From: Acidobacteriota bacterium
Lineage (GTDB): Bacteria; Acidobacteriota; UBA6911; RPQK01; JAJDTT01
Direction: 5' to 3'
Assembly (NCBI GenBank): GCA_965209055.1
Contig: OZ242374.1
Location: 64,001 to 128,000 of the forward strand
Length of the DNA stretch: 64,000 bases
Positions 2,240 to 18,673 of the stretch are shown here, piece by piece. The notes under the pieces were generated by a model, which saw nothing but the letters and a program-made list of their open reading frames with translations, was not told where the DNA came from and did no database searches. How positions within the stretch are numbered: the stretch's first letter is position 1; every line of letters starts with the position of its first letter. A program made the position numbers and the translations under genes.

Positions 2240-3859
2240 ATGCAGCTGTCCGAACTGATCGTCCGGGAAGCCAGGGAACGGGGCCTGAACCACTACTTCG
2301 GCATACCGGGAAGCGGGCTGCCCCTGGACATCATGGATTGGGGGCGGCGTCTGGATCTCGACTTCGTCACGGTGGCCCATGAATCCTCGGCGGCCATCAT
2401 GGCTGCCTACTATGGACTCGTGAGAGAGACGGCGGGTCTGGCCCTGGCGGTCAAGGGCGTCGGAGCCGGGAACTTGGCGGGTGGGGCCGTCAACGCCTAC
2501 TTCGAGCGCGTCCCCGTCGTCTGTTGCTGTGAGCGGAGTCCATTGTCCACCGGCCACCTGGAGCTGGTCTGCCAGTGCTCCCACGGGAAGCTCTTCGACT
2601 CGGTGGTCAAGTCGCAGTGTACGGTCTCTCTCGACTCGGCTCGGGAGAGTCTTCGCGACGCCTTCTTCCAGGCGTCCGATGGCCGTCCGGGTCCGGTGCT
2701 GCTGGACGTTCCTACCGACCTGTCGACGGCTTCCGTGCCGGGTGGGACGCTCGCTCCGCTTGAGGCTCGTCCGTCCGCACAGCCCGACGAATCGAAGCTC
2801 GCAGTTCTCCGGAAGGCGTTGTCAGAGTCCCAAAGACCGGTGGTCCTGGCGGGACAGGACGTGGTCCGGGCCGGCGCCTGCGCATTCCTGCACTCGTTGG
2901 TCGAATCCCTGGGAGCCGCGGTTCTGGTGGAGATGGACGCCCACGGAGTCTTTCCCGAGTCCCATCCCCTGTGGGCCGGGACCTTCGTGGGACACCAGAT
3001 TCCCCACACGGTGGAGGGAGAGCTGGTCCCGCAAGCCGACTTGGCGCTTCTGGTCGGCTGCGACAGCCTGGTTTCGGACAAGAAGTGGGAGTCGGCGGCC
3101 CCCGTCTTCGAATTGGCCCAGCGGAAAGAGTACGAATCGTTGGCGGCCAGTCCCCGCCTCCGGATCGACGGCGATCTGAAGACCTCTTTGAGCCGGCTGC
3201 TTCCGCCGTCCCCCCAGGCCGGATTTCCGGCGTCGCAAATCGCGAAGACCCGGGAGCAGGTTTTGCGGCAGTTCCGGCGTCCGGGCGACGCCCGGCTGGC
3301 GGCTCAGGACATTATCGAGATCACGCGGACCCATCTGCCGGATGACGGCCTTCTGATTTCCGAAACGGGGATCTTCATCCTGATGTTGCATCATCTCTGG
3401 CCCGTGGATCGCCCCGGCAGCCATCTCTGCACTTCCGGCGGACGCACCATGGGCCTGATGCTTCCGGCGATCCTGGGAGCCAAACTGGCCCGGCCCGAAC
3501 AACCCATGGTGGGCATTGGAGCCGATGGCAGCACCTTGATGCGGCTGGGGGAGTTGGAGGTCTTCGCCCGCACCGGAGTCCGGGTCCCTCTGGTGATCCT
3601 GAATGACCACGCGCTGGGCACCATGAAGTCGAGGCAGCAAAGCCGGGGAATGGAGGACTACGGGCTGGATCTGCACCCCATCGATCTGGCGGCCGTGGCC
3701 CGGGCCTCGGGTCTGGCCGGTGTCGTGGTCCGGACGCCCGGGGAATACGAAACGGAACTCAAGAAGGCTCTGGTTGCCGACACCACCACTCTGATCGACG
3801 CGCGGGTGGACCCGAAGGCCTACCAGGACAGCTTCGCCGCCACCATCGGGATCGTCTAG
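2240..3859 (+). CDS. Thiamine-pyrophosphate-dependent enzyme (acetolactate synthase-like)
   Basis: FGIPG, HESSAAIMA, GRPGPVLLDVP and the TPP motif ADGS...VILND; GGAGG upstream of ATG 2240. Confidence 0.88.
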   Translation: MQLSELIVREARERGLNHYFGIPGSGLPLDIMDWGRRLDLDFVTVAHESSAAIMAAYYGLVRETAGLALAVKGVGAGNLAGGAVNAYFERVPVVCCCERSPLSTGHLELVCQCSHGKLFDSVVKSQCTVSLDSARESLRDAFFQASDGRPGPVLLDVPTDLSTASVPGGTLAPLEARPSAQPDESKLAVLRKALSESQRPVVLAGQDVVRAGACAFLHSLVESLGAAVLVEMDAHGVFPESHPLWAGTFVGHQIPHTVEGELVPQADLALLVGCDSLVSDKKWESAAPVFELAQRKEYESLAASPRLRIDGDLKTSLSRLLPPSPQAGFPASQIAKTREQVLRQFRRPGDARLAAQDIIEITRTHLPDDGLLISETGIFILMLHHLWPVDRPGSHLCTSGGRTMGLMLPAILGAKLARPEQPMVGIGADGSTLMRLGELEVFARTGVRVPLVILNDHALGTMKSRQQSRGMEDYGLDLHPIDLAAVARASGLAGVVVRTPGEYETELKKALVADTTTLIDARVDPKAYQDSFAATIGIV

Positions 3860-3973
3860 CAGTCCGTGGTGAAAGTCCCGCGAGCACCGAGACCGTTCCT
3901 GCGCCCGCCGGACAAGGCGCGATTCGGGTGCATACCGGGAGTATGTGCCCGAATCGCAACGCAGTCCGCCGGG
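3860..3973 (+). repeat. Left part of a split palindromic (MITE/ERIC-like or structured RNA) element, ending in the attL core
   Basis: 3860-3913 is the imperfect reverse complement of 19993-20046. Internal hairpin GCGATTCGGGTGCATAC-CGGGA-GTATGTGCCCGAATCGC at 3919-3957. Confidence 0.8.
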
Positions 3974-4022
3974 CTGTAGTTTGTGGGATGGACATAACGT
4001 CCAGATATGTCCAGTATTGTAC

Positions 4023-4136
4023 ATAAGTGTCTGTTTATCATTGACTTATCAGGTGTTCGGACGTTCTCCGGTGTCCCATAACGATCCGCTTCGTCCCCTT
4101 GCATCCACGATATTGTGGGGGTATAGTGGTGGGTAT
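4023..4136 (+). promoter_or_regulatory. Candidate att-associated accessory/arm sites upstream of the integrase
   Basis: TAAGT-N15-ACTTA dyad (4024-4048), mirrored near the right end by TAAGT-N15-GTTTA (19951-19975). Tandem GGGGGTAT / GTGGGTAT immediately before the integrase start, as commonly seen upstream of P4-like integrases. Confidence 0.45.
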
Positions 4137-5358
4137 GGCACTCGTGAAACGTCCCCCGAAACGCAAACCGCGCGGGCGGCATCCCCTCAACGCCCTGACA
4201 CCGGTCTTTGTCCGCAACGTGAATCAGGCCGGACGCTACTGCGACGGCCAGGGCCTCTATCTCGACGTCCGGCCCACGGGCAGCCGGGGTTGGATTCAAC
4301 GTCTCACCATCCGTGGCCGCCGAGCCGAGCTCGGACTCGGTGGATTCCCCCTCGTCTCGCTCAAGGAAGCGCGCGAGAAGGCGTTCGCCAACCGGAAGCT
4401 GGCCCGCGAGGGGGGCGACCCCCGGGCCGGGAAGCGGGAGTCCAAGTCGATGCCCACCTTCGCTGACGCCACCCGGACGGTCTGGAAGCAGTTGCGGCCG
4501 GGCTGGCGCTCCCCCCGGCATGCTCGGCTCTGGCTGGCGAGCCTGGAGCACCACGCCTTCCCTCGCATTGGTGAGATGCCGATTGCGGAGGTGACGAGCG
4601 CCGACGTGATCGGAATTCTCGCTCCGATCTGGCACGAGAAGGCCTCCACCGCCCGGAAGCTGCGCCAGCGCATCCGCGCGGTCCTGGAGTGGGCCGTGGC
4701 GATGGATCTTCGGCCCGACAACCCCTGTGACCGGATCGGCCCGGTGCTCGGTGCGCAGGGAAAGGTGGTGCGCCACATGCGGGCGTTGCCCCACCGCGAG
4801 GTGGCGGCCGCACTTGAGTCGGTGCAGGGGTCCAACGCGCGGCCGGTGTTGAAGCTGGCCTTCGAGTTCCTGGTGCTGACGGCGACACGCTCCGGCGAGG
4901 TCCGCAGGGCGGCTTGGACGGAGATCGACCGGGAGGAGGGGGTGTGGACCATCCCGGCCGCACGGACGAAAGGGAATCGGGAGCACCGGGTCCCGCTCAG
5001 TCGTCGTGCGTTGGAGATCCTCAAGGACGTGCGGTCGGTCGGTGGCGTTGGCCCATTCGTGTTTCCGAGCGTGCGCGGCAAGCCAGTCGGAAACACGGCG
5101 ATGGCGGAGCTGCTCCGGAGGTTGGGGATCGCGGCGGTACCGCACGGGTTCCGGTCGAGTTTCCGGGACTGGGCGGCGGAGGAGACGGATCATCCGCGCG
5201 AAGTGGCGGAGGCGGCGCTGGCGCACAAGGTGCGCAACCCGATCGAGGCCGCCTACCGGCGCACGGACCTGTTCGAACGCCGGCGCCGACTTATGGACAA
5301 CTGGGCGAACTATCTGGCTGGCGAGAGCCGGCAACCGGCATCCGGTCGGCTCCGTTGA
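4135..5358 (+). CDS. Tyrosine recombinase/integrase, P4-like with N-terminal arm-binding domain
   Basis: N-terminal DGQGLYL...LGLGGFPLVSLKEAR; catalytic residues intact: TATRSGE (R), RTK (K), HGFR (HxxR), LAH (H), AYRR (Y). Confidence 0.95.
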   Translation: MALVKRPPKRKPRGRHPLNALTPVFVRNVNQAGRYCDGQGLYLDVRPTGSRGWIQRLTIRGRRAELGLGGFPLVSLKEAREKAFANRKLAREGGDPRAGKRESKSMPTFADATRTVWKQLRPGWRSPRHARLWLASLEHHAFPRIGEMPIAEVTSADVIGILAPIWHEKASTARKLRQRIRAVLEWAVAMDLRPDNPCDRIGPVLGAQGKVVRHMRALPHREVAAALESVQGSNARPVLKLAFEFLVLTATRSGEVRRAAWTEIDREEGVWTIPAARTKGNREHRVPLSRRALEILKDVRSVGGVGPFVFPSVRGKPVGNTAMAELLRRLGIAAVPHGFRSSFRDWAAEETDHPREVAEAALAHKVRNPIEAAYRRTDLFERRRRLMDNWANYLAGESRQPASGRLR

Positions 5359-5599
5359 TCCGCCGTGCGTAGAGCGCCAGCTTGAAAGTCTGCGCGAAGC
5401 CATAGTCCGCCGATATGCCGCCGGAAACCCACTCAGGCGCAATCTTCGAGAACTCCCGAAAAAACAAGCCCGCCATTTGGCCTGGTTGGCTTGGTGAAAC
5501 CGGGCCAAGGGTTCGGGATAGGCCGTTGGACGTTGTCCTCTCCCATGCGGGGCATTCTCTCACGACAGACTGGAATTCTCCCTTCCCCATCTTCGCAGA

Positions 5600-5912
5600 G
5601 GCCTTCCCGCAGGGATCAATGAAGAAGTGAGCGACCCCCCCGCGCATGCCGCGCCGGTGTCCAACGGAGTGGAACACTGGCAGCGCTTGCGTGACGTGCG
5701 AGGCACGAAAACAGGGGGGTCGCTCACTTCTCCTCCCCGGACTCCCCGTCCGGGCGCTCCTCCTCCAGGAGGACGGGGACAAACCGAAGGGGCTCAACAA
5801 GATGCCGGAAAGGGAGCTTGTAACACTCGCCGCTCCGGGAGTGGAACACACCCCCCCATGTGTGTTTCACATCCTGGGACTTTGCCGGACAGGCCCACCG
5901 GAGGTGGAACAC
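5600..5912 (+). other. Structured non-coding element, copy 1 (candidate ori/oriT or ncRNA)
   Basis: Perfect 18-bp inverted repeat at 5623-5640 / 5714-5731; GTGGAACAC repeated at 5669, 5841 and 5904; homologous to 6733-6473 on the other strand. Confidence 0.6.
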
Positions 5913-6028
5913 GGACCGGGAGCGGTCCGCCACATTGCCGTCAATGGGACTTTCCGTGCTCTTCGCAGCCCGTGGATCCACGACGTCCACGGGGTCCACC
6001 CGGGACCGCGCGCGGCCCCTCAGGCGCT

Positions 6029-6420
6029 CTACAACCCTCCTCCGGTTTCCGCTGGAATCCGGACCGAGAGCCAGCCGCGGCCCCGGTCGATGCGGATGCG
6101 GTTTTGGGGGATAGGGGCGGTGGCCCGCTCCCGCCGGAGGTCGTCGCGGGCCACCGCGACCACTTGCACCGGGTGGTCTTGTGCGCACAGCGCGGCCCAG
6201 AGCCGGGGGTGCTCCACCCTCCACGAGAGCAACTCCGAGTCGGTGTCCCGGCCGGGATCGACATAGACGAAGGTCGCCCGGTCCTCCTCCAGGGCCAGGG
6301 GGAGCTTGCGGGGGAAGTACCGGCTCCGTCCCCGGGCGTGGCCGGCATAGTGGCGGCACTGGAACAGCCGCCGGGAAAGGCCCAGCGCCTCCAGCGCCTG
6401 CGACAGCTGCGTCACCTGCG
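6029..6420 (-). pseudogene. Internal fragment of a conserved mobile-element hypothetical protein
   Basis: ALEALGLSRRL...Y.G..GRSRYFPRKLPLALEEDRATFVYVDPG...HPRLWAAL resembles the middle of a larger protein recalled from acidobacterial integrative elements; N- and C-termini are absent. Confidence 0.5.
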
Positions 6421-6472
6421 GGCCGACAGGGTTCATGGAGGGGTGAAAGGGCTTCCCGGTGTCGATCCGGGA

Positions 6473-6733
6473 GTGTAAGTGAGACAACGGGGGCGACTTA
6501 CAACAGGGGAGCGAGTTCACTTACACACGCGATTTCCCCGAACTCTTTGTCGCTCATGCAGTTACGGCCACATTCCCGGCTTCGCCGCGCCCGCACGGGG
6601 AAATCGGAGGTGGACGGGAGCGACCCCCCCTTTTTCCTGCCCGGTGCGGGCGCGGGGGTGTTGTGCAACTTACATTTGCACAACACCCCCTGGGGGGGTC
6701 GCTCCCGTCTCATTGATCCCTAGCGGGAAGGCC
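6473..6733 (-). other. Structured non-coding element, copy 2 (candidate ori/oriT or ncRNA)
   Basis: Perfect inverted repeats at 6613-6630/6692-6709 (18 bp), 6654-6668/6676-6690 (15 bp), 6530-6540/6596-6606 (11 bp), 6585-6596/6644-6655 (12 bp) and 6473-6482/6517-6526 (10 bp); ACTTACA/TGTAAGT motif occurs 4 times. Confidence 0.65.
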
Positions 6734-6767
6734 ACAAAAGACACCCGTGCCGGGCAAGATGGGACGT

Positions 6768-7112
6768 ATGAGTGCCCCCGACATCCCCGAGAAACGCTTG
6801 GAGACCCTCAGGAAGTAGGCGGTGGAGAGGCTCCGCGACCGCCGCGCTTACCGCTGTCCGGACTGCGGCAATCGAAGCTTCCCGCGAGGCCGCGCTTCGG
6901 CCACCGTCATGAGGTTCGAGCGAGCCGGTGCCAAATGCCGGGAGTTCCAGGTCCGGCCGGGTGAGGGGTGCTACCCCTTCCTCGTCTCCGATCCGCCCTA
7001 CCGGACAAGCCCGCATTGTCTAACTTATCGTGCTCTGACCCACGCCCCTGCCCCCCCGGTTTCCAGCGGGGTCCACGGTCCAGAGACGTCAAAATCTTGC
7101 CCAGCCCCGTGA
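6768..7112 (+). pseudogene. Possible decayed small zinc-ribbon gene
   Basis: ATG 6768 MSAPDIPEKRLETLRK* continues in frame after the TAG as AVERLRDRRAYRCPDCGNRSF. Confidence 0.3.
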
Positions 7113-7249
7113 GTCTATTTGTATGGAAAACGAGGCAAGGATTCTATCCGTCAGGTCAGTAGCTCCTTCTACACTTCGGCCAGAAGAGGATCCATTGCAT
7201 CATTGAATACTGTCGAAGGCCAACCTTCTGCCGGGAGGAACCGTTCCGG

Positions 7250-10200
7250 ATGTCAGTACCCACCCTGAAGATCGCACATCGTTGCCGATTGCGATCCGCG
7301 ACCTCACTACTAACCGTAACTTTGGGCTTGGTTCTGCTGGCCGTACCGCAGAAAGCCATGGCTCAAATCGTCCCCGTCTGCGACCGAACTCCGGAAGTGC
7401 GTGACGCCATCGTGGAGAAGATTCCAGATGTTTCCGACTGCAGCGAGGTGACTGAGGCGCATCTGGCCGTGATCACAGGTTTCCTCGATCTGGCAGGTCC
7501 GCACGAGTTTTGGGGTGTTCCCAGCGGCCGCCCGAATCCCATTCCAGAGTTGAAAGCCGGGGATTTCTCCGGGCTGTCTTCGTTGGAAGGACTCCTGTTG
7601 CAGTACAATGACCTGACGACGCTGCCCCCAGGTTTCTTCCACGGGCTGTCCTCCCTGAAAACGCTCAACCTGGAGAACAACCGCCTGACCACGCTGTCGA
7701 CCGGGGTCTTTGCCGGGTTGTCCTCCCTGAGAACGCTCGCACTGAGTGGCAATCCACTGACGACCGTGCCGGCCGGGATCTTCTACGGACTCACCGCGCT
7801 GGACAAACTCAGGCTGTCCCTGCATTACGACGAATTGACGCCTTTCCACGGCGGGATCTTCTCCGGACTCACCGTGTTGAATACGCTCTACCTGACCCTA
7901 TCGGGGTTCAATGATCCGGTTCCCCTTTCCGGGGATCTTTTCTACGGACTCACCGCGCTGAAATCGCTCAATCTCTACAGTCTCAATCGGAGCACTCTGC
8001 CCGATGACTTTTTCTCCGAGTTGTCCACGCTGAAAGGGCTCAAACTGCTGGGCAACCGACTGACCACGCTGCCAGCCGGAATCTTTGCGGGACTGTCCTC
8101 GCTGGAATCGCTCGACCTGAATTTCAATCCACTGACCAGCCTGCCGCCCGGGGTCTTTTCTGGATTGTCCTTGCTGAAAACGCTCAAACTGGTTGGCAAC
8201 GAGTTGAGCACACTGCCGGTGGGGGTCTTCGCCGGGTTGCCCTCGCTGGAGACGCTCGAGATGGATGAAAACCGTCTGGCCACTCTGCCGCCCGGGGTCT
8301 TTTCTGGATTGTCCTCGCTGAAAACACTCAATCTGGGTGTCAACGACCTGACCACGCTGCCGGTCGGGGTCTTCGCCGGGCTACCCTCGCTACAATGGCT
8401 GTACCTGTATCGCAACGAACTGACCGCACTGCCGGTGGGAATTTTCTCCGGACTGTCTTCCCTTAAGTTGCTCAATCTGCGTGGCAACGACCTGATCCAG
8501 GTGTCGATTGGCCTCTTCTCCGGATTGTCTTCGCTGCAAACGCTCGATCTGGCGTACAATCGCCTGACCGCGCTACCGGACGGCATCTTTTTTGGGCTGT
8601 CCTCGCTACAATTGCTGTACCTGGATCGCAACGAATTGACCACGTTGCCGGGCGCGGTCTTCTCGGGACTGTCTTCTTTGGAGACGCTCAGTCTGCGTGG
8701 CAACGAACTGACCACGCTACCGGACCGGGTTTTCTCCGGGTTGACCTCGCTACAAACGCTCGTTCTGACAACCAATCGCTTGACCGCGCTGCCGGACGGG
8801 ATCTTTACCGGGCTGCCCTCGCTGAAGAGGCTCACGGTGTCTCAAAACGAGCGTCTACTGACCACGATGATTTCGCTGGAATTCGCTGGAGAAGGCCGGT
8901 TCAGAGCCATGGCGCAAACCGGAGCCCTCTTCGATATCGAGCTTCCGATCACCGTTGTCAACGGTGTCATCGACGGCGGTTCAAGCCAGCAGATCACCAT
9001 CCCCAGGGGCAGCGTGTATAGCGCCACGTTCACCGTTTCCCGCAATCCCGGCCCGGCCTCGACCGTCTTCGTGGATATCGGCGAGTTGCCCGAGATGCCG
9101 AGTTCCATTGATACGGACCTCACTCTGGTCAAGTCTCCCCACTTGCCGCTGATCGTTCTGGAGGAACCAAATCTGCACTTTGCTCATTTCGCCAATGGGG
9201 AATCCATCACGTCCGAGTTGGTGTTGGTGAACGTGGGCGACGAGCCGATCCGTCCGGTTATCTCCTTTCTGGATCGCGGCGGGAATCTCCTGTCCGGCGG
9301 ATGGCTGGTGGAGATGAGGGAAGGCCTGGAGGTCCAAGAGGACGGCTCGGTGAGGGTTCAGACGAGCGTGGAACCCCTGGGAGAGCTCACAATCTCGACC
9401 CATCCTCGAAGGGTGATGGTGTCCGGATCGGTGCGCGTGGTCTCGGACGGTCCCATCGGCGGGGTCCTCCGCTATGTCAATCCGGGCATCGGCGTGGCCG
9501 GGGTGGGAGCGAGTCCACGCGTCCGGGACGCCATCTTCCCGGCTCGAAACCAGGCGGGAGGGATCCGCACGGCGGTCGCGATCCGTAACCGAGGAGCGGG
9601 GTGGATGAGGGTGCGGTGCCAATTGATGCAAGCGGGCGCCGTGCTGGATGAGACGGAGATCTCTCTGAAAGGCGGCGGGCAGGCGGCCCGGTTTCTCGAC
9701 GAATTGTTCACCCAGACCGATACGTCCGACTTCGTTGGGTCGGTGCGTTGTACGGCGCCGCGCAGCCGGCTTTTCACGGGAGTGGCCGTTGAAATGGATA
9801 CCGAGAATCGGATCTTCACGACCCTGCCGATGGTGCCGGTGGAGCCCTTGGCGGACGGGAGCGGGGAAGGGACTTTGGTCTTCGCGCATTTCGGGAACGG
9901 ATCGTCCATTCGATCCGAGTTGGTGTTGGTGAACGTGGGGACCGATCCGATCCGGCCCTCCGTCTTCTTCTATGATCGGCAGGGCGCCCAAATCGACGCG
10001 GAATCGGTGGTGGAAGTGATGGGAGACCTGGAGGTCCGGGAGGACGGAGCACTCGGCGTTGGGACGGAAATGGGGGCGCTGAGCGAGCTCACGATCTCGA
10101 CCCATAGGCAAGGGGAACTGGTGACGGGATCGGTGCGGGTGGAGTCTGACGGTCCCATGGGCGGGGTTCTGCGCTTTGACGTCCCAAGCGTGGGGGTGGC

Positions 10201-10552
10201 CGGGATCGGCGCCTCCCCGCCCGTCACGGCCGCGATCTTCCCGGCCCGGCGCCACGAAAACGGGATCAACACCGGAGCCGCGATCCACAATCTGGAAGCG
10301 GAAGCCATGACGTTGACCTGCGCACTGATGCAGAACGGTCGCATGCTGGCTGAGACAGAGATCGACCTGGACGCCGGCGGTCAGGTCGCCCGTTTCATCA
10401 ACGAACTCTTCAAGGACGCTGATACCTTCAACTTCGCCGGCTCGGTCCACTGCACCGCGCCCCCGGGCGGAGCCTTCACGGGAGTGGCCCTGGAGATGGA
10501 TGCGGACAACCGGATCTTCACCACATTGCCGATGGTCCCGGTGCACCGATGA
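7250..10552 (+). CDS. Secreted leucine-rich-repeat protein A (about 18 LRRs, Cys N-cap, two C-terminal beta-rich modules)
   Basis: Signal peptide ending KAMA; cap VCDRTPEVRDAIV...DC; 24-aa repeats LTTLPxGxFxGLSSLxxLxLxxNx; duplicated module FAHF(A/G)NG..SELVLVNVG...FTTLPMVPV. Confidence 0.95.
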   Translation: MSVPTLKIAHRCRLRSATSLLTVTLGLVLLAVPQKAMAQIVPVCDRTPEVRDAIVEKIPDVSDCSEVTEAHLAVITGFLDLAGPHEFWGVPSGRPNPIPELKAGDFSGLSSLEGLLLQYNDLTTLPPGFFHGLSSLKTLNLENNRLTTLSTGVFAGLSSLRTLALSGNPLTTVPAGIFYGLTALDKLRLSLHYDELTPFHGGIFSGLTVLNTLYLTLSGFNDPVPLSGDLFYGLTALKSLNLYSLNRSTLPDDFFSELSTLKGLKLLGNRLTTLPAGIFAGLSSLESLDLNFNPLTSLPPGVFSGLSLLKTLKLVGNELSTLPVGVFAGLPSLETLEMDENRLATLPPGVFSGLSSLKTLNLGVNDLTTLPVGVFAGLPSLQWLYLYRNELTALPVGIFSGLSSLKLLNLRGNDLIQVSIGLFSGLSSLQTLDLAYNRLTALPDGIFFGLSSLQLLYLDRNELTTLPGAVFSGLSSLETLSLRGNELTTLPDRVFSGLTSLQTLVLTTNRLTALPDGIFTGLPSLKRLTVSQNERLLTTMISLEFAGEGRFRAMAQTGALFDIELPITVVNGVIDGGSSQQITIPRGSVYSATFTVSRNPGPASTVFVDIGELPEMPSSIDTDLTLVKSPHLPLIVLEEPNLHFAHFANGESITSELVLVNVGDEPIRPVISFLDRGGNLLSGGWLVEMREGLEVQEDGSVRVQTSVEPLGELTISTHPRRVMVSGSVRVVSDGPIGGVLRYVNPGIGVAGVGASPRVRDAIFPARNQAGGIRTAVAIRNRGAGWMRVRCQLMQAGAVLDETEISLKGGGQAARFLDELFTQTDTSDFVGSVRCTAPRSRLFTGVAVEMDTENRIFTTLPMVPVEPLADGSGEGTLVFAHFGNGSSIRSELVLVNVGTDPIRPSVFFYDRQGAQIDAESVVEVMGDLEVREDGALGVGTEMGALSELTISTHRQGELVTGSVRVESDGPMGGVLRFDVPSVGVAGIGASPPVTAAIFPARRHENGINTGAAIHNLEAEAMTLTCALMQNGRMLAETEIDLDAGGQVARFINELFKDADTFNFAGSVHCTAPPGGAFTGVALEMDADNRIFTTLPMVPVHR

Positions 10553-13607: not shown

Positions 13608-13701
13608 CCGATGCGTCCGTGGGAGGATCGCCTGAAACCCTCGCCAAAGATCCCAGATGGGAAATAGACAGCCTTCCTTCTGCCTGGAGGAACCATTCCG
13701 G

Positions 13702-16700
13702 ATGTCAGTACACATTCTGAAGATTGAACCGCTTCCCCGATTGCGATCCACGACCTCGGTGCTAGCGGTAACTTTGGGCTTGGTTCTGCTGGCCGTACCG
13801 GAGAAAGCCACGGCGCAGATCGTCCCCGTCTGTGACCGGACTCCGGAAGTGCGCGACGCAATCGTGGAGAAGGTTCCGGACGTTAGCGATTGCGGTGATG
13901 TGACGGAGGCACATCTGGCTGAGATTGAGGGTGACCTCAATCTGGCAGGTCCGTACGATGTATGGGGTATTCCCTCCGGCGATCTCCCGAATCCCATTCT
14001 AGAGTTAAAGGCGGGGGATTTTAGCGGACTGTCCTCGTTGGAAGGACTTGGGTTACATGCCAACAAACTGACTACCCTTCCGGCGGGCCTCTTCCACGGG
14101 CTTTCTTCCCTGGAAACGCTCGCGCTGGGCCGCAATCCACTGACCTCCCTGCCGGCCGGGATCTTCTCGGGACTCATCTCGCTCCAATCGCTCGGGCTGT
14201 CCCTGCACTACAACGATATGGTTCCCCTGTCCGGCGACCTTTTCTCGGGACTCACCTCGCTCCAATGGCTCACTCTGTACATCGGGGGTCCTCTGCCAGA
14301 TGACCTCTTATTCGGATTGCCCACGCTGAAATGGCTCAAATTGAGAGTCAGCGACGGGACGACGCTGCCGGCTGGGATTTTCGCGGGACTGTCGTTGCTG
14401 GAGTCGCTCAACCTGGCCTTCAACCGATTGACCGAGCTACCGGCCGGGAACTTCTCCGGGTTGTCGTCGTTGAAATGGCTCGATCTGCGCGGCAATCGAT
14501 TAACGACACTGCCGGCCGGGATTTTCGCGGAACTGTCCACGCTGGAAGGGCTCGATTTGACAGACAATCGACTGACGACGCTGCCGGCCGGGATCTTCGG
14601 TGAGCTGTCCTCTCTGAAAGAGCTCAACCTGGGCGATAACGACCTGACCACACTCCCGGTCGGCGTCTTCGCCGGGTTGTCCTCGCTGGAAGATCTCTCT
14701 CTGGTTAGAAACAGCTTGACGACGTTGCCGACCGGCGTCTTTTCCGAGCTGTCCTCGCTGGAAGATCTCTCTCTGGGTGGCAACGGCCTGACGACACTGC
14801 CGGTCGGTGTCTTCTCCGGGTTGTCCTCGCTGGAACGGCTCTATCTTGGTGGCAACGGCCTGACGACACTGCCGGTCGGCGTCTTCGCCGGGTTGTCTTC
14901 GCTGGAAGGGCTCTCTCTGGGTGGCAACCGTCTGACGCCGTTGCCGATCGGGGTCTTCGCCGGGCTGTCCTCGCTGGAATGGCTCTCTCTGGATGGCAAC
15001 GGCCTGACGACGCTGCCGGCCGGGGCCTTCTCTGGACTGTCGTCCTTGAAACAGCTCTATCTGGAGAACAACCATCTGACGACGTTACCAGCTGGGGTCT
15101 TCTATGAGTTGTCCTCGCTGGAACGGCTCTTGCTGAGAAACAACGACCTGAGGACGCTGCCGGTCGGGGTCTTCGCCGGTTTGTCCTCACTGCGGGTGCT
15201 CCACCTGCGTTGGAACGAGCTGAGGTCGCTTCCAGTCGGGACCTTCGCTGGGCTGTCCTCGCTGGAAGAGCTCTACCTGAGAAATAACGACCTGAGGACG
15301 CTGCCGGCCGGAGTCTTCTCCGGGCTGTCCTCGCTGAAAGTGCTCAGCCTGAGCGACAACCGACTGACGACGCTGCCGATCGGAGTCTTCTCCGGGTTGT
15401 CCTCGCTGGAAGAGCTCTTTCTGGTCAGAAACAGATTAACGACGCTTCCGGCCGGGGTCTTCGCGGGGCTGTCCTCTTTGAAAACGCTTGGGTTGTATGA
15501 CAATCACCTGACCGCACTGCCGGAGGGGATCTTTTCCGGGCTGTCCGCGTTGGAATCGCTTTGGTTGTCTACCAATCGCTTGACCGCACTGCCGGAGGGG
15601 ATCTTTTCCGGGTTGCCGTCGCTACAAAAGCTTTCTCTGTCTGACAACTGGAACCAACTGACCACAATGATTTCGCTGGAATTCGCTGGGGAAGGCCGGT
15701 TCAGAGCCCGGGCCGACACCGGGGCCCTCTTTGAGATCGTGTTGCCGATCAATGTTGTCAACGGCGTCATCGACGGCGGATCGAGCCACATCAATATCCC
15801 CAGGGGCAGCGTGTATAGCGCCATGTTCACAGTTTCCCGCGACCCCGACCCGACGTCTGCCGTCTTCGTGGATATCGGCGAGTTGCCGGAGATGCCGGAT
15901 TCCGTTGATACGGACCTCACTCTGGTCAAATCGCCCCACTTGCCGCTGAACGTTCTGGAGGCGCCGAATCTGCACTTTGCCCATTTCGCCAATGGGGAGT
16001 CCATCACGTCCGAATTGGTGTTGGTGAACGTGGGCGACGAGCCGATCCGTCCGGTCATCTCCTTCCTGGACCGCGGAGGGAATCTCCTGTCCGGCGGATG
16101 GCTGGTCGAGATGAGGGAGGATCTGGAGGTTCGGGAGGACGGCTCGCTGAGGGTTCGGACGAGCATCGAACCGCTGGGGGAGCGCACGATCTCGACCCAT
16201 CCTCGAAGGACGATTGTGTCCGGATCGGTGCGGGTGGAGTCCGATGGTCCTCTCGGCGGGGTCCTCCGCTATGTCAATCCGGATATCGGCGTGGCCGGGG
16301 TGGGAGCGAGTCCACGCGTCCGGGACGCCATCTTCCCGGCTCGAAACCAGGCGGGAGGGATCCGCACAGCGCTCGCGATCCGCAGCCGGGCAGACGAATG
16401 GATGAGGGTGCGGTGCCAGTTGCTGCAAGCGGGCACTGTGCTGGAAGAGACGCAGATCTCCCTGACGCGCGACGGGCAAGCGGCCCGGTTTATCGATGAA
16501 TTGTTCACCCAGACCGACACGTCCGACTTCGTTGGTTCGGTGCGCTGTACGGCGCCGCGCGGCCAGCTTTTCACGGGAGTGGCCGTGGAATTGGATACAG
16601 AGAATCGGATCTTTACCACCCTGCCGATGGTGCCGGTGGAGCCCTTGGCGGACGGAAGCGAGGAAGGGACTCTGGTCTTCGCGCATTTCGGGAACGGATC

Positions 16701-17349
16701 GTCCATTCGATCCGAGTTGGTGTTGGTGAACGTGGGTGCCGATCCCCTACGGCCCGCCGTCTACTTTTACGATCAGGAGGGCGCCCAAATTGACGCGGAA
16801 TCGGTCGTGGAAGTGACGGGAGATCTGGAGGTTCGAGAGGACGGAGCACTGAGCGTCGGGACGGAAATGGTGGCGCTGAGCCAGCTCACGATCTCCACCC
16901 ACGGGCAAGGGGATTTGGTGACGGGATCGGTGCGAGTGGAGTCTGACGGACCCGTTGGCGGGGTCCTGCGCTTTGACATCCCAAGCGTGGGGGTGGCCGG
17001 GATTGGTGCCTCCCTGCCCGTTACGGCCGCGATGTTCCCGGCCCGGCGGCAGGACAACGGGATCAACACCGGAGCTGCGATCCGAAACCTCGAGTCGGAA
17101 GCCGTGACGTTGACCTGCGCACTCATGCAGAACGGTCGCATTCTGGCTGAGACGGAGATCGACCTGGACGCCGGCGGTCAGGTCGCCCGTTTCATCGACG
17201 AACTCTTCAAGGACGCCGATACTTCCGACTTCACCGGCTCAGTCCTCTGCACTGCGCTCCCGGGCGGATCCTTCACTGGAGTGGCCCTGGAGATGGATGC
17301 GGACAACCGGATCTTCACCACATTGCCCATGGTCCCGGTGCTCCGATGA
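13702..17349 (+). CDS. Secreted leucine-rich-repeat protein B (about 23 LRRs), paralog of protein A
   Basis: Same leader, cap and two C-terminal modules as 7250-10552; start chosen by alignment to A (ORF-track start is 13657). Confidence 0.95.
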   Translation: MSVHILKIEPLPRLRSTTSVLAVTLGLVLLAVPEKATAQIVPVCDRTPEVRDAIVEKVPDVSDCGDVTEAHLAEIEGDLNLAGPYDVWGIPSGDLPNPILELKAGDFSGLSSLEGLGLHANKLTTLPAGLFHGLSSLETLALGRNPLTSLPAGIFSGLISLQSLGLSLHYNDMVPLSGDLFSGLTSLQWLTLYIGGPLPDDLLFGLPTLKWLKLRVSDGTTLPAGIFAGLSLLESLNLAFNRLTELPAGNFSGLSSLKWLDLRGNRLTTLPAGIFAELSTLEGLDLTDNRLTTLPAGIFGELSSLKELNLGDNDLTTLPVGVFAGLSSLEDLSLVRNSLTTLPTGVFSELSSLEDLSLGGNGLTTLPVGVFSGLSSLERLYLGGNGLTTLPVGVFAGLSSLEGLSLGGNRLTPLPIGVFAGLSSLEWLSLDGNGLTTLPAGAFSGLSSLKQLYLENNHLTTLPAGVFYELSSLERLLLRNNDLRTLPVGVFAGLSSLRVLHLRWNELRSLPVGTFAGLSSLEELYLRNNDLRTLPAGVFSGLSSLKVLSLSDNRLTTLPIGVFSGLSSLEELFLVRNRLTTLPAGVFAGLSSLKTLGLYDNHLTALPEGIFSGLSALESLWLSTNRLTALPEGIFSGLPSLQKLSLSDNWNQLTTMISLEFAGEGRFRARADTGALFEIVLPINVVNGVIDGGSSHINIPRGSVYSAMFTVSRDPDPTSAVFVDIGELPEMPDSVDTDLTLVKSPHLPLNVLEAPNLHFAHFANGESITSELVLVNVGDEPIRPVISFLDRGGNLLSGGWLVEMREDLEVREDGSLRVRTSIEPLGERTISTHPRRTIVSGSVRVESDGPLGGVLRYVNPDIGVAGVGASPRVRDAIFPARNQAGGIRTALAIRSRADEWMRVRCQLLQAGTVLEETQISLTRDGQAARFIDELFTQTDTSDFVGSVRCTAPRGQLFTGVAVELDTENRIFTTLPMVPVEPLADGSEEGTLVFAHFGNGSSIRSELVLVNVGADPLRPAVYFYDQEGAQIDAESVVEVTGDLEVREDGALSVGTEMVALSQLTISTHGQGDLVTGSVRVESDGPVGGVLRFDIPSVGVAGIGASLPVTAAMFPARRQDNGINTGAAIRNLESEAVTLTCALMQNGRILAETEIDLDAGGQVARFIDELFKDADTSDFTGSVLCTALPGGSFTGVALEMDADNRIFTTLPMVPVLR

Positions 17350-17483: not shown

Positions 17484-18673
17484 GGAAGGTCTGATTAAGT
17501 CGAGTCAGCGTTCTGCACGATAATCCCTTCATCATCACTGCGTGGGGGGAAAGACGATGTCGCAACGGACGTTCGCAGATCTGGAATACGACGCCAAGAA
17601 GCGGGTGACCCGTCGGGAGAAGTTTCTGGTCCGCATGGACGGGTTGATTCCGTGGGAGCAGTTGGAAGCCCGGATTGAGCCGTTTTACCCGAAAGCGGGA
17701 CGGGGCCGGCGTCCCTACCCGCTCTCGGCGATGCTGCGGATCCACTGCGTGCAGTTGTTTTACAACCTGAGCGATCCGGGGATGGAGGATCTGCTTTACG
17801 AGGTGGAGTCGGTGCGGCGGTTCGTGGGTCTGAAGCTCACAGGGCCGCTGCCGGACGAGACGACGATTCTGAAGTTCCGTCATCGGCTGGAGGAGCATGG
17901 TCTGGGGGAGGCGCTGTTCGAGGAGATCGGTTCTCACCTGCAGCGTCAAGGCCTGCGGCTGAGCCGGGGGACGATCGTGGACGCGAGTATCCTGGCGGCG
18001 CCTTCCTCGACGAAAAACAAGGATCGGGCGCGGGATCCGGAGATGCACCAGACGAAAAAGGGAAAACAGTGGTATTTCGGAATGAAGGCCCACCTGGGGG
18101 TGGACGCCCAGACGGGGGTGGCGCACACGGTGGTGACGGCTCCGGCCAACGAGCATGACGTGACGCGGGCCTCCGAATTGCTGCACGGCTCGGAGTCGCA
18201 AGTTTGGGGGGATTCCGGATACCAGGGAGTGCAGAAGCGGTCGGAGAATCGAGATCGGCCGGTGGATTGGCAGGTGATGATGAAGCCCGGGAAGCGTTGG
18301 CAGCTGTCGCCGGAGAGTGAGGCGGCGTTGGCCGAGCGGCGTAAGGCATCGGTACGGGCGAAGGCAGAACATGTGTTCGGGTACCTGAAACGGCATTTCG
18401 GCTACGCCAAGGTGCGCTACCGCGGGCTGGCGAAAAACACCCAACGGATCTATCTGCTGGTGGGATTCGCCAATCTGATGATCGCCGAGCGCTCCGGTGT
18501 GACCGCCTGATCGGAATGCGGCACGGCTGTGTTTGAGGCTGGGGAAACCGTCTCGCAATCGCTTGGTCAAGACCAATTCAGGGTTGCAAATCCCAGGTTA
18601 GAGCGTCTGGATCCGAAAAAGGGAGGGATACAAGGTCTGTTTCGCCCCATATGAGGACTTAATCAGACCTTCC
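17484..18673 (+). mobile_element. IS5-family insertion sequence, 1190 bp
   Basis: Perfect 18-bp terminal inverted repeats GGAAGGTCTGATTAAGTC (17484-17501, 18656-18673); CTAA target duplication at 17480-17483 and 18674-18677. Confidence 0.95.
17557..18510 (+). CDS. IS5-family DDE transposase
   Basis: TRREKFL..MD.LIPW, PDETTILKFR, GTIVDA, RDPEMHQTKKGKQWYFGMKAH, GDSGY and VRAKAEHVF motifs. Confidence 0.95.
   Translation: MSQRTFADLEYDAKKRVTRREKFLVRMDGLIPWEQLEARIEPFYPKAGRGRRPYPLSAMLRIHCVQLFYNLSDPGMEDLLYEVESVRRFVGLKLTGPLPDETTILKFRHRLEEHGLGEALFEEIGSHLQRQGLRLSRGTIVDASILAAPSSTKNKDRARDPEMHQTKKGKQWYFGMKAHLGVDAQTGVAHTVVTAPANEHDVTRASELLHGSESQVWGDSGYQGVQKRSENRDRPVDWQVMMKPGKRWQLSPESEAALAERRKASVRAKAEHVFGYLKRHFGYAKVRYRGLAKNTQRIYLLVGFANLMIAERSGVTA

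What the first reader, a model, noticed from the sequence alone, without database searches (positions are those of the whole stretch)
5600..6733. Two facing copies of a structured non-coding element with compensatory changes and copy-specific iterons
Seen: GGCCTTCCCGC(T)AGGGATCAATGA...GAGCGACCCCCCC starts one copy on + (5600-5641) and another on - (6733-6692). Each forms a perfect 18-bp stem, with arms differing in a compensatory way (AAGTGAGCGA/TCGCTCACTT versus ACGGGAGCGA/TCGCTCCCGT). Both continue with GGCA.GAAAA before the 3' arm and TCCCCGT.CGGGCGC after it. The enclosed inner hairpins are unrelated. Each carries a short motif that is reiterated further downstream: GTGGAACAC 3 times in copy 1 and TGTAAGT 4 times in copy 2. 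Inference: a conserved scaffold with swappable specificity repeats suggests a replication or transfer origin family (or an ncRNA) of acidobacterial integrative elements. I do not recognise it as a described family.
Basis: partly seen in the sequence, partly recalled or inferred. Interest (0 to 1): 0.75.

Follow-up and report, generated by a model that had tools for sequence, protein, structure and literature searches.

The report
Paired oriT-like modules around a pseudogene
Two facing copies of a structured DNA module of about 300 bases bracket the decayed remnant of a conjugation gene beside an integrase, and are most likely transfer-origin-type sites that let a small genomic island ride on conjugative elements.

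Summary
Window 5600-5915 (+) and 6733-6437 (-) are two inverted copies of one module. Each has a 23/24-nt terminal repeat, a perfect 18-bp stem with two compensatory differences, a conserved scaffold, and copy-specific short motifs (GTGGAACAC or TGTAAGT).

A related genome (L001) holds four more copies and a third motif type (GTGCACA).

The enclosed 135-aa ORF is not an independent gene. It is a 5'-truncated, internally deleted and unconstrained remnant of a ~650-aa fusion protein: ArdC-like domains plus an uncharacterised domain, "X". X has a winged helix followed by a fold whose best, non-significant matches are restriction-endonuclease-like. X also occurs fused to VirB8 and to coupling-protein domains.

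A P4-type tyrosine integrase (4099-5358) lies next door. The remnant is multi-copy in one 6.08-Mb contig.

My best reading (about 0.45) is a pair of origin-of-transfer-type sites of different specificity on a decayed integrative mobilizable element. The architecture matches the MOBC plasmid pAM373: an 18-bp outer stem, a nested hairpin and adjacent short repeats. Membership in that family failed to reach significance.

The main rival (about 0.25) is that these are integrase recombination ends carrying arm-type sites.

No Rfam, plasmid or phage match was found. The wider covariance-model search could not be run.

The parts
4099..5358 (+). P4-type tyrosine integrase gene (context). The 550-aa minus-strand ORF 3856-5508 is its antisense shadow.
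   Evidence: Pfam hits Arm-DNA-bind_3, Phage_int_M and Phage_integrase. Codon statistics favour the + ORF. It is 88% identical to the L001 integrase, with differences by codon position of 37/26/86.
5359..5599 (.). Conserved non-coding spacer between the integrase stop and the terminal repeat of module W1.
   Evidence: 197/207 identical to L001, more than integrase third positions. Translations of other contigs (P0293-P0296) show the same integrase-spacer-module order, with a spacer that appears longer by roughly 100 translated residues (my estimate from reading the translations).
5600..5622 (+). Module W1, 23-nt terminal repeat. It contains a 4-bp mini-hairpin, TCCC-GCA-GGGA.
   Evidence: 23/23 identical in L001.
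5623..5731 (+). Module W1 long hairpin: an 18-bp perfect stem (5623-5640/5714-5731) and a 73-nt loop holding motif copy 1 (5669-5677) and the GGCACGAAAA block.
   Evidence: 106/109 identical in L001.
5732..5915 (+). Module W1 inner arm. It holds the TCCCCGTCCGGGCGC block, GTGGAACAC at 5841 and 5904, an inverted 1-mismatch copy at 5862, and a 2-mismatch copy at the scaffold position of site 2 (about 5818).
   Evidence: The site region is 75/79 identical in L001.
6029..6436 (-). 135-aa ORF: a remnant of an ArdC-X fusion gene, corresponding to residues 468-559 and 619-646 of the 654-aa P0024. It lacks the ArdC domains and the winged helix.
   Evidence: tblastn; alignment showing variable deletions and frameshifts among paralogues; full-length relatives; differences from L001 by codon position of 5/9/11.
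6437..6612 (-). Module W2 inner arm. TGTAAGT lies at 6519 and 6496 (direct) and at 6474 (inverted), with the TCCCCGTGCGGGCGC block.
   Evidence: The motifs are kept in L001 although the surrounding region is only 78/99 identical.
6613..6709 (-). Module W2 long hairpin: an 18-bp perfect stem (6613-6630/6692-6709) enclosing a perfect 15-bp inner hairpin (6654-6668/6676-6690), with TGTAAGT at its tip and the GGCAGGAAAA block.
   Evidence: 93/97 identical in L001.
6710..6733 (-). Module W2, 24-nt terminal repeat. Homology to the orthologous L001 copy ends at its outer edge.
6734..6772 (.). About 40 nt outside W2 that is shared with the outer flank of L001 module LC. It holds a small terminator-like hairpin plus a T-run.
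   Evidence: blastn 6591-6772 against L001 2175-1995; alignment; flank test score 28, reached by 0/300 shuffles; terminator-like site.

Best explanation
[quoted passage not shown] They belong to a family of acidobacterial integrative conjugative or mobilizable elements.

Proposed working of each module:
- A conserved nick or recognition region: the 23/24-nt terminal repeat next to the long hairpin, which would form in the transferred single strand or as a cruciform.
- About 100-250 nt away, a set of short motifs that act as a specificity-determining binding site for a cognate relaxosome protein.

The likely cognate protein is the winged-helix plus nuclease-like 'X' domain, whose full-length gene (fused to ArdC) originally ended next to module W1.

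In the window the relaxase-like gene has decayed to a 135-aa remnant, while both modules are kept. This leaves an integrase plus two oriT-like sites of different specificity (GTGGAACAC and TGTAAGT). The result would be a small hitcher island that helper elements elsewhere in the genome could mobilise in trans.

Shown:
- the anatomy of the modules;
- the family and its three motif types;
- decay of the gene;
- conservation of module W1 above that of the pseudogene;
- the integrase neighbour;
- the conjugative associations of X.

Inferred:
- nicking;
- binding of X to the motifs;
- mobilisation.
For: 1. Architecture. Every one of six copies has an 18-bp outer stem, inner hairpins, an adjacent conserved block, and 3-5 short type-specific motifs further in.

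2. A matching layout in a MOBC plasmid. pAM373 is typed MOBC in PLSDB. Between its coupling-protein gene and its replication-relaxation gene I found an 18-bp perfect outer stem (14392-14409/14516-14533) that encloses a 25-bp perfect hairpin. It is followed 19 nt later by a run of 12-nt direct repeats read as five overlapping 30-nt copies (14552-14629). A review (PMC12857230, passages read) states that the MOBC relaxase TraX binds 5 direct repeats 70-120 bp from nic.

3. Gene linkage.
- The enclosed ORF is a remnant of ArdC-N + zincin + X.
- Two independent deletion forms keep the native 3' flank, so W1 natively follows the X gene.
- X occurs fused as VirB8-X (P0063, P0071) and X-TraG/TrwB (P0100).
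- The AlphaFold model of X without its winged helix has pLDDT 91.2. Its best Foldseek hits, all non-significant (best E = 0.063), are by my labelling mostly restriction-endonuclease-like nucleases.
- The N-terminus is winged-helix/MarR-like.
- The nearest named Atlas clusters are Replic_Relax, at 0.83 and 0.78; these are leads only. PF13814 equals MobC in CONJscan (PMC5357655, passages read).

4. Selection on the modules rather than the gene, window against L001.
- W1 repeat plus hairpin: 129/132 identical, against 258/289 for the remnant (Fisher p = 0.002).
- W2 hairpin: 93/97 (p = 0.06).
- Remnant differences by codon position: 5/9/11.

5. A heterotypic pair (types 1 and 2) is kept in both genomes. 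This suits two helper specificities better than two ends bound by one recombinase.

6. Copy number. Six remnant paralogues and three full-length genes carry the same longest-contig length of 6,077,182. Integrase-plus-oriT-only islands are described as common (preprint 10.64898/2026.01.13.699239; abstract and section 7 read).
Against: - No relaxase, coupling protein or T4SS gene is in the window.
- X is not a demonstrated relaxase.
  - Pfam and NCBIfam give nothing for it.
  - hhalign of X profiles against the pAM373 Replic_Relax protein gives E = 0.29 and 0.43, probability 0.2% or less.
  - Foldseek gives 0 hits at E <= 0.001 in both searches.
  - No canonical catalytic motif was identified.
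- There is no sequence similarity to pAM373 or to any plasmid or phage record.
- The motifs are dispersed and partly inverted, not tandem as in pAM373.
- Type-3 copies in L001 lie directly after integrase 3' remnants, and homology breaks at the terminal-repeat edge in LB and LD. Both points fit recombination sites at least as well.
- Only 6 DNA copies from 2 genomes were seen, and they comprise only 3 independent types.
- The compensatory changes could equally reflect paired protein half-sites.
- The W2 terminal repeat (18/22) and W2 site region (78/99) are not better conserved than the pseudogene.
Confidence: 0.45

Rival explanations
1. The modules are recombination ends (att-type sites) of elements moved by the tyrosine integrase. 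The terminal repeat would be the core-type binding and cleavage site. The short motifs would be arm-type sites for the integrase's N-terminal arm-binding domain, as in lambda attP or the ends of Tn916-like elements. On this reading the 1,134-bp W1..W2 unit is an integrase-less deletion derivative moved in trans.
For: - The neighbouring integrase carries Arm-DNA-bind_3, so it needs arm-type repeats.
- In L001, modules LC and LD lie roughly 200 nt beyond integrase 3' remnants, with the terminal repeat outermost.
- Homology breaks at the outer edge of the terminal repeat in LB (against W2) and in LD (against LC).
- Modules come as outward-facing pairs at two scales: 0.93-1.13 kb and 12.2 kb.
- A solitary 14-nt core-like match lies upstream of the L001 integrase. 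At up to 2 mismatches L001 has 4 matches in all, against a shuffle mean of 0.45, and none of 100 shuffles reached 4.
- LC and LB are direct repeats bounding a type I restriction-modification island.
- All remnant paralogues share one 5' junction, as expected if a deletion derivative multiplied.
Against: - W1 and W2 carry different motif types, so one integrase would not bind both arms.
- The integrase lies outside the W1..W2 pair.
- att cores are direct repeats, whereas these are inverted.
- The centre of the mini-palindrome varies in sequence and length (GCA, GCTA, GGCA, GTA, GAA), which suits a crossover region poorly.
- W2 and LC share about 40 nt beyond the repeat, so the repeat edge is not always the end of homology.
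- A perfect 18-bp stem with compensatory changes has no role in classical att sites.
- No head-to-head joint of two terminal repeats was found in the window; the only match in L001, a 10-nt one at 16216, lies outside every module.
Confidence: 0.25
2. W1..W2 is a non-autonomous transposon (MITE-like) with 24-nt terminal inverted repeats and subterminal binding sites. An as yet unrecognised transposase would move it, possibly the ArdC-X protein itself.
For: - Terminal inverted repeats of 23/24 nt bound a 1,134-bp unit.
- The flanks differ between genomes on the W2 side.
- Inverted pairs are seen in 3 of 3 cases: W1/W2, LA/LB and LC/LD.
Against: - I saw no target-site duplication at any of the three pairs when reading the flanks.
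- No transposase family was found in or beside the unit.
- The left flank (spacer plus integrase) is conserved with the unit in 2 of 2 genomes and in translations from 3 further contigs. So the unit does not insert independently of the integrase.
- The two ends carry different motifs.
- Comparison with IS-end databases was not possible.
Confidence: 0.1
3. The structures act at the RNA level, or as single-strand initiation signals. They could be bidirectional terminators or insulators between convergent genes (the integrase and ArdC-X both read towards W1), an unrecognised ncRNA, or a single-strand origin or promoter used after transfer.
For: - W1 sits between convergently transcribed integrase and ArdC-X genes in the window, in L001 and in translations from other contigs.
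- The folds are very stable.
- One G-T wobble in the W1 inner stem becomes G-C in L001.
Against: - No Rfam match reaches its threshold: the best is 23 bits against a gathering score of 53.
- No promoter-like site was found, and no T-run follows the long stems. The two terminator-like hits equal the shuffle mean of 2.0.
- The fold is equally strong on both strands.
- Type-specific repeated motifs and a 24-nt conserved block are not explained by termination.
Confidence: 0.08
4. The 1.1-kb segment is an invertible switch flipped by the neighbouring tyrosine recombinase acting on the 24-nt inverted repeats.
For: Inverted repeats of 23/24 nt flank a short segment 240 nt from a tyrosine recombinase gene.
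Against: - The orientation relative to the integrase is the same in the window and in L001, and it is consistent in the translated copies P0292 and P0293. No flipped form was seen.
- There is no promoter-like site inside.
- The content is a pseudogene.
- Homology between the arms runs about 300 nt with differing motifs, and other copies pair over 12 kb.
Confidence: 0.03

Closest known systems
oriT of MOBC-type plasmids pAD1/pAM373 (relaxase TraX/Orf8, Replic_Relax family)
   Same: - A long perfect outer stem (18 bp in both) encloses a further perfect hairpin, with a set of short repeats beside it.
- TraX's binding site is 5 direct repeats that lie 70-120 bp from nic (PMC12857230, passages read).
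- A gene for a winged-helix protein with a possibly restriction-endonuclease-like domain, and a coupling-protein gene, are linked to it.
- My recollection of Francia & Clewell 2002 (not read) is that the large repeat is conserved between the two plasmids and the short repeats set specificity. That would mirror the 'conserved scaffold, swappable motifs' seen here.
   Different: - There is no sequence similarity.
- X is not significantly related to Replic_Relax: hhalign E = 0.29 and 0.43, and no Pfam hit.
- The motifs here are few and dispersed, one lies in the hairpin loop and one is inverted, whereas pAM373 has 12-nt tandem repeats.
- An extra conserved 24-nt block lies outside the stem.
- The modules occur in inverted pairs beside a tyrosine integrase in a chromosome.
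Integrase-plus-oriT-only genomic islands ('iOriT') and dual-oriT elements such as ICEclc
   Same: - The island keeps an integrase and cis sites but no relaxase or mating-pore genes.
- Several copies lie in one genome beside full-length helper-like genes.
- The concept is described in preprint 10.64898/2026.01.13.699239 (abstract and section 7 read).
- Two oriTs in ICEclc are mentioned in PMC5587640 and PMC6561031 (passages read).
   Different: - Those oriT families were defined in Proteobacteria and have no similarity to this module.
- Here the two sites differ in motif type and face each other 0.9-1.1 kb apart around a pseudogene.
- No function has been shown.
attP arms of lambda/P4-type integrases and the ends of Tn916-like elements
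   Same: - A tyrosine integrase with an arm-binding domain lies next to short repeated motifs and an inverted-repeat terminus.
- Breaks of homology fall at the terminus.
   Different: - The two arms carry different motifs.
- There is a long perfect hairpin.
- The orientation is inverted rather than direct.
- The integrase lies outside the pair.
Folded single-strand recombination sites (integron attC, CTX phage attP)
   Same: Structure is conserved while sequence varies, and a tyrosine recombinase is nearby. This is a resemblance by recall only.
   Different: - The integrase is P4-type, not IntI or Xer.
- The stems are perfect and conserved in sequence.
- The copies face each other rather than forming a same-orientation array.
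- The attC box motifs were not looked for.

Membership tests
MOBC-type oriT (pAD1/pAM373-like) | A large inverted repeat with an adjacent set of short repeats that bind the relaxase | tested here: met
   An 18-bp stem, inner hairpins and 3-5 type-specific motifs are present in 6/6 copies. pAM373 shows an 18-bp stem, a 25-bp nested stem and 12-nt repeats. The arrangement of the repeats differs: dispersed and partly inverted here, tandem in pAM373.
MOBC-type oriT (pAD1/pAM373-like) | A cognate relaxase of the Replic_Relax / PD-(D/E)XK family encoded nearby | tested here: inconclusive
   - The linked X domain has no PF13814 hit.
- hhalign against the pAM373 protein gives E = 0.29 and 0.43.
- Atlas scores of 0.83 and 0.78 to Replic_Relax clusters are leads only.
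- The model has pLDDT 91.2, but the best Foldseek hit is at E = 0.063. The top hits are mostly restriction-endonuclease-like by my own labelling.
- In the window the gene is only a remnant.
MOBC-type oriT (pAD1/pAM373-like) | Site-specific nicking, and mobilisation in cis | not testable with these tools
   This needs nicking and mating assays.
MOBC-type oriT (pAD1/pAM373-like) | Linkage to coupling-protein or T4SS genes | tested here: inconclusive
   None is in the window. In the X family, fusions VirB8-X and X-TraG/TrwB exist. DNA around the full-length genes could not be fetched.
att site of a tyrosine-integrase element | An adjacent tyrosine integrase with an arm-binding domain | tested here: met
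   Arm-DNA-bind_3, Phage_int_M and Phage_integrase at 4099-5358.
att site of a tyrosine-integrase element | Identical core as a direct repeat at both ends of the element, with the integrase inside | tested here: not met
   W1 and W2 are inverted and the integrase lies outside them. No other copy of the repeat is in the window.
att site of a tyrosine-integrase element | The same arm-type motif on both arms | tested here: not met
   GTGGAACAC in W1 against TGTAAGT in W2. None of the other type's motif occurs in either module.
att site of a tyrosine-integrase element | Homology between elements or sites breaks at the core | tested here: inconclusive
   The break is at the repeat edge for LB and LD. 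W2 and LC, however, share about 40 nt beyond it.
IS / MITE-type transposon | Terminal inverted repeats and multiple copies | tested here: met
   Repeats of 23/24 nt.
IS / MITE-type transposon | Target-site duplication | tested here: not met
   I read the flanks of W1/W2, LA/LB and LC/LD and saw no duplication.
IS / MITE-type transposon | A transposase, or ends matching a catalogued IS | tested here: inconclusive
   No transposase family was found in or next to the unit. No IS-end database was available. There is no match in plasmid or phage records.
Rfam RNA family | A covariance-model score at or above the gathering threshold | tested here: not met
   There were 4 sub-threshold matches, at 15-23 bits against thresholds of 41-85.

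The most novel reading that the evidence does not exclude
X is a large, undescribed family of winged-helix plus restriction-endonuclease-like conjugative relaxases. It is MOBC-like in design but lies outside Replic_Relax, is often fused to the anti-restriction protein ArdC, and has 1,922 50%-identity clusters at E <= 0.001.

The modules would be its origins of transfer, built as a constant hairpin-and-nick scaffold with exchangeable 7-9-nt address motifs.

The window's island would then carry two addresses, so that it can hitch on two different helper elements.
Probability: 0.25. Interest if true: 0.7.

Novelty: new variant of a known kind. Interest (0 to 1): 0.55.

Why it matters
If correct, this gives three things.
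- The first cis-acting transfer signal for integrative elements of Acidobacteriota, a phylum whose mobile elements are almost unstudied.
- A natural example of modular specificity, a constant scaffold with swappable address motifs, in transfer origins.
- A candidate function for a very large protein family without annotation.

It would also explain how small islands that carry eukaryote-like LRR proteins or restriction systems, with no transfer genes of their own, spread in these genomes.

If the integrase-end reading is right instead, the value is smaller: a new family of element ends with arm-type sites.

Tried and rejected
- **Rfam**, E-value mode on 4500-8000: only chance-level hits.
- **Pfam and NCBIfam on every ORF in the unit:** nothing. 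PHROGs recognised only the ArdC part of P0024.
- **Genome-collection scan.** Of 40 pattern matches, 1 was confirmed, giving one locus, L001. The source genome itself was not found there.
  - No DNA-pattern scan for further module copies could follow.
Names and contexts of the paralogues stayed unchecked.
- **nhmmer profile of the six modules:** no further copy in the window or in L001.
- **att-type direct repeats** of the region upstream of the integrase: none above chance.
- **Similarity of the LB and LD outer flanks**, which I had suspected by eye: not significant. I dropped it.
- **Plasmid and phage searches.** tblastn of X against PLSDB gave no match. blastn of the unit against plasmids and phages gave no match.
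- **CloDF13** as a source of a MOBC protein: no ORF had a Pfam hit. Dead end.
- **hhalign of X profiles against the pAM373 relaxase:** not significant.
- **First X model** (whole protein, pLDDT 68.7): only weak winged-helix matches.
- **Francia et al. 2013** (PMC3746933) is not held. Francia & Clewell 2002 was not read; what I say of it is recalled.
- **MOBP-type nick regions.** I recalled a resemblance between the terminal repeat and these nick regions but did not test it, and it plays no part in the verdict.
- **oriT and IS-end databases** were not available.
Full report
**1. Observation**

- The 23/24-nt repeat GGCCTTCCCGC(T)AGGGATCAATGA starts a copy on + at 5600 and on - at 6733.
- Each is followed by a perfect 18-bp stem: 5623-5640/5714-5731 and 6613-6630/6692-6709.
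- The arms differ at two positions, each changed on both sides.
- GGCA.GAAAA precedes the 3' arm and TCCCCGT.CGGGCGC follows it.
- GTGGAACAC occurs exactly 5 times in 64 kb, and 3 of these lie within 236 nt of copy 1. TGTAAGT occurs 5 times, and 4 of these lie within 200 nt of copy 2.
- The repeat pattern had no match in 100 shuffles.
- As single-stranded DNA the copies fold with z = -4.6 to -9.9 on either strand.

Aligned, the two copies are homologous over about 300 nt, not about 130. I call them W1 (5600-5915, +) and W2 (6733-6437, -).

**2. The enclosed ORF**

Composition by codon position shows real coding signal on the minus strand at 6029-6436. Pfam and NCBIfam find nothing.

A search for proteins of similar length gave 22 hits among 63 candidates. 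The few that carry a source name are labelled Acidobacteriota MAG, and six share the longest-contig length of 6,077,182. Their alignment shows different internal deletions and frameshifts.

The search for longer proteins gave 265 hits among 8,000 scored candidates, of which 120 were listed.
- The best are ~650-aa proteins with ArdC-N (PF08401) and a zincin-like metallopeptidase (PF18818).
- Their C-terminal ~340 aa correspond to a free-standing ~341-aa family, which I call X.

By tblastn the window ORF equals residues 468-559 and 619-646 of P0024. It is therefore a 5'-truncated, internally deleted remnant. All remnant copies share the same 5' junction.

Against the L001 copy, the differences fall 5/9/11 over codon positions 1/2/3. 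The integrase next door shows 37/26/86. The remnant is therefore unconstrained.

**3. Neighbours**
- The gene to the left is on the + strand, 4099-5358. It is a P4-type tyrosine integrase with Arm-DNA-bind_3, Phage_int_M and Phage_integrase.
- The long minus-strand ORF 3856-5508 is its antisense shadow.
- Upstream of the integrase lie housekeeping-type genes.
- Downstream of W2 lie two very large LRR proteins, a methyltransferase and an IS5-like transposase.
- No relaxase, coupling protein or T4SS gene is in the window.
- There is no tRNA gene.

**4. Related DNA**

It holds the same unit in a different chromosomal setting: integrase, spacer, module LA, remnant, module LB. Homology to the window runs over 3998-5921 and 6122-6733 and stops at the outer edge of the W2 repeat.

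L001 also holds two further modules, LC and LD.
- They form a third type whose motif is GTGCACA. This motif has 7 exact copies in L001, all in LC or LD, and none in the window.
- Each lies just beyond a 3' remnant of an integrase gene, with its terminal repeat outermost.
- LC and LB are direct repeats bounding a type I restriction-modification island.

The six modules align over a common scaffold, and the type-specific motif sits at equivalent positions: hairpin loop, two direct sites, one inverted site. A profile of the six finds no further copy in the window or in L001.

Structure counts over the six copies:
- The long stem has 17 pairs, 98% of cells paired, and 2 pairs with double changes.
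- For the whole consensus structure, 88.9% of cells pair, against 82.5% in shuffles (0/500 reach the observed value) and 43-57% when the partners are slid.

With only three independent types, this is modest covariation evidence.

**5. More copies seen through translations**

A spurious ORF spans the integrase 3' end (antisense), the spacer, the repeat and the W1 hairpin. Used as a query it found 5 proteins.
- P0293 reads hairpin, repeat, spacer, integrase 3' end.
- P0296 reads a longer spacer, repeat, hairpin.
- P0292 reads remnant, sites, hairpin, repeat, flank.

So the order "integrase -> spacer -> W1 <- ArdC-X" recurs on at least three other contigs.

Two independent deletion forms both keep the sequence after the gene's stop or the W1 sites. 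One is the window form. The other is shared by L001 and by P0010-P0013. W1 therefore natively follows the ArdC-X gene.

**6. Conservation, window against L001**

| Segment | Identical / compared |
|---|---|
| Integrase | 88% |
| Spacer | 197/207 |
| W1 repeat + hairpin | 129/132 |
| W1 sites | 75/79 |
| Remnant | 258/289 |
| W2 hairpin | 93/97 |
| W2 site region | 78/99 |
| W2 repeat | 18/22 |
| Right flank | unrelated |

- In the W2 site region, the motifs themselves are kept apart from one mismatch.
- W1 repeat plus hairpin is more conserved than the pseudogene (Fisher p = 0.002).
- For the W2 hairpin the difference is marginal (p = 0.06).

**7. What X is**

X is a large family. A profile search of 1.84 billion representatives gave 1,922 proteins at E <= 0.001 and 1,052 at E <= 1e-10.

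Family and database searches:
- No Pfam family was found on 33 diverse members, apart from weak HTH/MarR matches.
- NCBIfam and PHROGs gave nothing.
- There is no match in PLSDB plasmids.
- Fused forms exist: VirB8-X (P0063, P0071), X-TraG/TrwB (P0100) and ArdC-X.

Structure:
- The whole-protein model was mediocre (pLDDT 68.7) and matched only winged-helix regulators weakly.
- A model of the part after the winged helix was confident (pLDDT 91.2; topology alpha-alpha-beta4-alpha-beta-alpha).
- Foldseek gave no hit at E <= 0.001. The best-ranked hits include the small subunit of R.BspD6I (E = 0.063), Bax1, McrC, hantavirus cap-snatching endonucleases, AF1548, N.BspD6I, R2 endonuclease regions, PspGI, LmuA, XisH, Shedu and a Cas4-family protein. 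From my own knowledge I recognise these as PD-(D/E)XK-type nucleases.

Relation to MOBC relaxases:
- The nearest named clusters in the ESM Atlas are Replic_Relax, at 0.83 for the whole protein and 0.78 for residues 115-260. These are leads only.
- Replic_Relax (PF13814) is the MobC relaxase class in CONJscan (PMC5357655, passages read).
- MOBC relaxases are PD-(D/E)XK-related, and TraX binds five direct repeats 70-120 bp from nic (PMC12857230, passages read).
- A direct test failed. hhalign of alignments A5 and A8 against the pAM373 replication-relaxation protein gave E = 0.29 and 0.43. That protein itself matches PF13814 at 5.2e-06.

So X works like a plausible MOBC-type DNA-processing protein, but it is not shown to be a member of that family.

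**8. Comparison with a known MOBC plasmid**

In pAM373, typed MOBC in PLSDB, the region between the coupling-protein-like gene and the replication-relaxation gene holds three features:
- an 18-bp perfect outer stem (14392-14409/14516-14533);
- enclosed by it, a 25-bp perfect hairpin;
- 19 nt further on, a run of 12-nt direct repeats, read as five overlapping 30-nt copies (14552-14629).

This is the layout I recalled for the pAD1/pAM373 oriT, and it parallels W2: an 18-bp outer stem, a 15-bp perfect inner hairpin, and short motifs further in.

The differences:
- no sequence similarity;
- dispersed and partly inverted motifs;
- one motif inside the loop;
- an extra conserved 24-nt block;
- inverted pairing.

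**9. Mechanism**

Best reading (0.45): the modules are oriT-type relaxosome sites.
- The constant hairpin plus terminal block would be the processing site.
- The short motifs would be the address read by a cognate X-type protein.
- The island would have lost its own X gene but kept an integrase and two addresses, and would be mobilised in trans.

Shown: the anatomy, the family, gene decay, conservation of W1, the integrase neighbour, and the conjugative links of X. Inferred: binding, nicking and transfer.

Main rival (0.25): the modules are integrase recombination ends with arm-type sites.
- For it: the arm-binding integrase; the position of LC and LD behind integrase remnants; breaks of homology at the repeat edge in LB and LD; the direct LC...LB pair around an island; and a solitary core-like 14-mer upstream of the L001 integrase.
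- Against it: the two arms carry different motifs; the integrase lies outside the pair; the orientation is inverted; the centre of the mini-palindrome is variable; and W2 and LC share 40 nt beyond the repeat.

Minor rivals:
- A MITE-like transposon: no target duplication, no transposase, and always seen with the integrase.
- An RNA-level terminator or ncRNA: no Rfam hit, promoter or T-run.
- An invertible switch: the same orientation in every copy seen.

**10. Limits**
- Only six DNA copies from two genomes were available.
- The DNA around the full-length ArdC-X genes, the other five paralogues on the 6.08-Mb contig, and any solo modules stayed unseen.
- No oriT or IS-end database was on hand.
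- bioRxiv supplements were closed.

**11. Verdict**

This is a real, non-random and previously uncatalogued family of structured cis-acting modules. They belong to acidobacterial integrative elements, and here they bracket a pseudogene. The family is best filed as a new variant of oriT-type sites with modular specificity, with integrase ends as a serious alternative. Interest is moderate (0.55).

Noticed in passing
window 7250-10552 and 13657-17349: Two very large leucine-rich-repeat proteins (1,100 and 1,230 aa; LRR_8 E = 4e-100 and 3e-152) lie just beyond module W2. They are eukaryote-like proteins that may be island cargo.
   Followed up: no
window 17542-18510: An IS5-type transposase (DDE_Tnp_1 plus DUF772) lies downstream of the LRR genes. 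It may mark the far side of the island.
   Followed up: no
window 6759-7112: A small Cys-rich reading frame (CPDC...KC) starts 26 nt outside W2 and has an in-frame TAG at 6816-6818. It has no family match. It may be a broken gene or a 96-aa ORF starting at GTG 6822.
   Followed up: partly
window 3856-5508 (-): This 550-aa ORF is the longest in the region, but it is the antisense shadow of the integrase gene 4099-5358 (+). Codon statistics, Pfam and the L001 homologue all favour the + ORF.
   Followed up: yes
L001 11020-11800: The last ~115 nt of the L001 integrase gene are duplicated around a low-GC insert of about 740 nt. The insert carries a 172-aa ORF with a sub-threshold HEPN match (19.8 bits against a cut-off of 22). 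The integrase 3' end seems to be a recombination hot spot.
   Followed up: partly
L001 2651-9650: A type I restriction-modification system (HsdR 2651-5749; HsdM in 7671-9890) fills the space between modules LC and LB, which are direct repeats.
   Followed up: partly
L001 13143-13156 (-): A solitary exact match to the 14-nt core of the terminal repeat (with T at the variable position) lies upstream of the integrase, without a hairpin module.
   Followed up: partly
window 4018-4056 and L001 about 13095-13060: An inverted pair of ATAAGT-like words, related to the TGTAAGT motif of W2, lies in the AT-rich region upstream of the integrase start in both genomes. It may be an operator or arm-type sites. 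I saw it by eye and ran no statistics.
   Followed up: no
L001 14444-16279: A 611-aa DDE_Tnp_1 transposase ORF lies about 160 nt outside module LD, whose terminal repeat is degenerate.
   Followed up: no
proteins P0143-P0291 (not in the window): The X family has 1,922 representatives at E <= 0.001 and no Pfam, NCBIfam or PHROG family. It is a large unannotated family linked to conjugation genes.
   Followed up: partly
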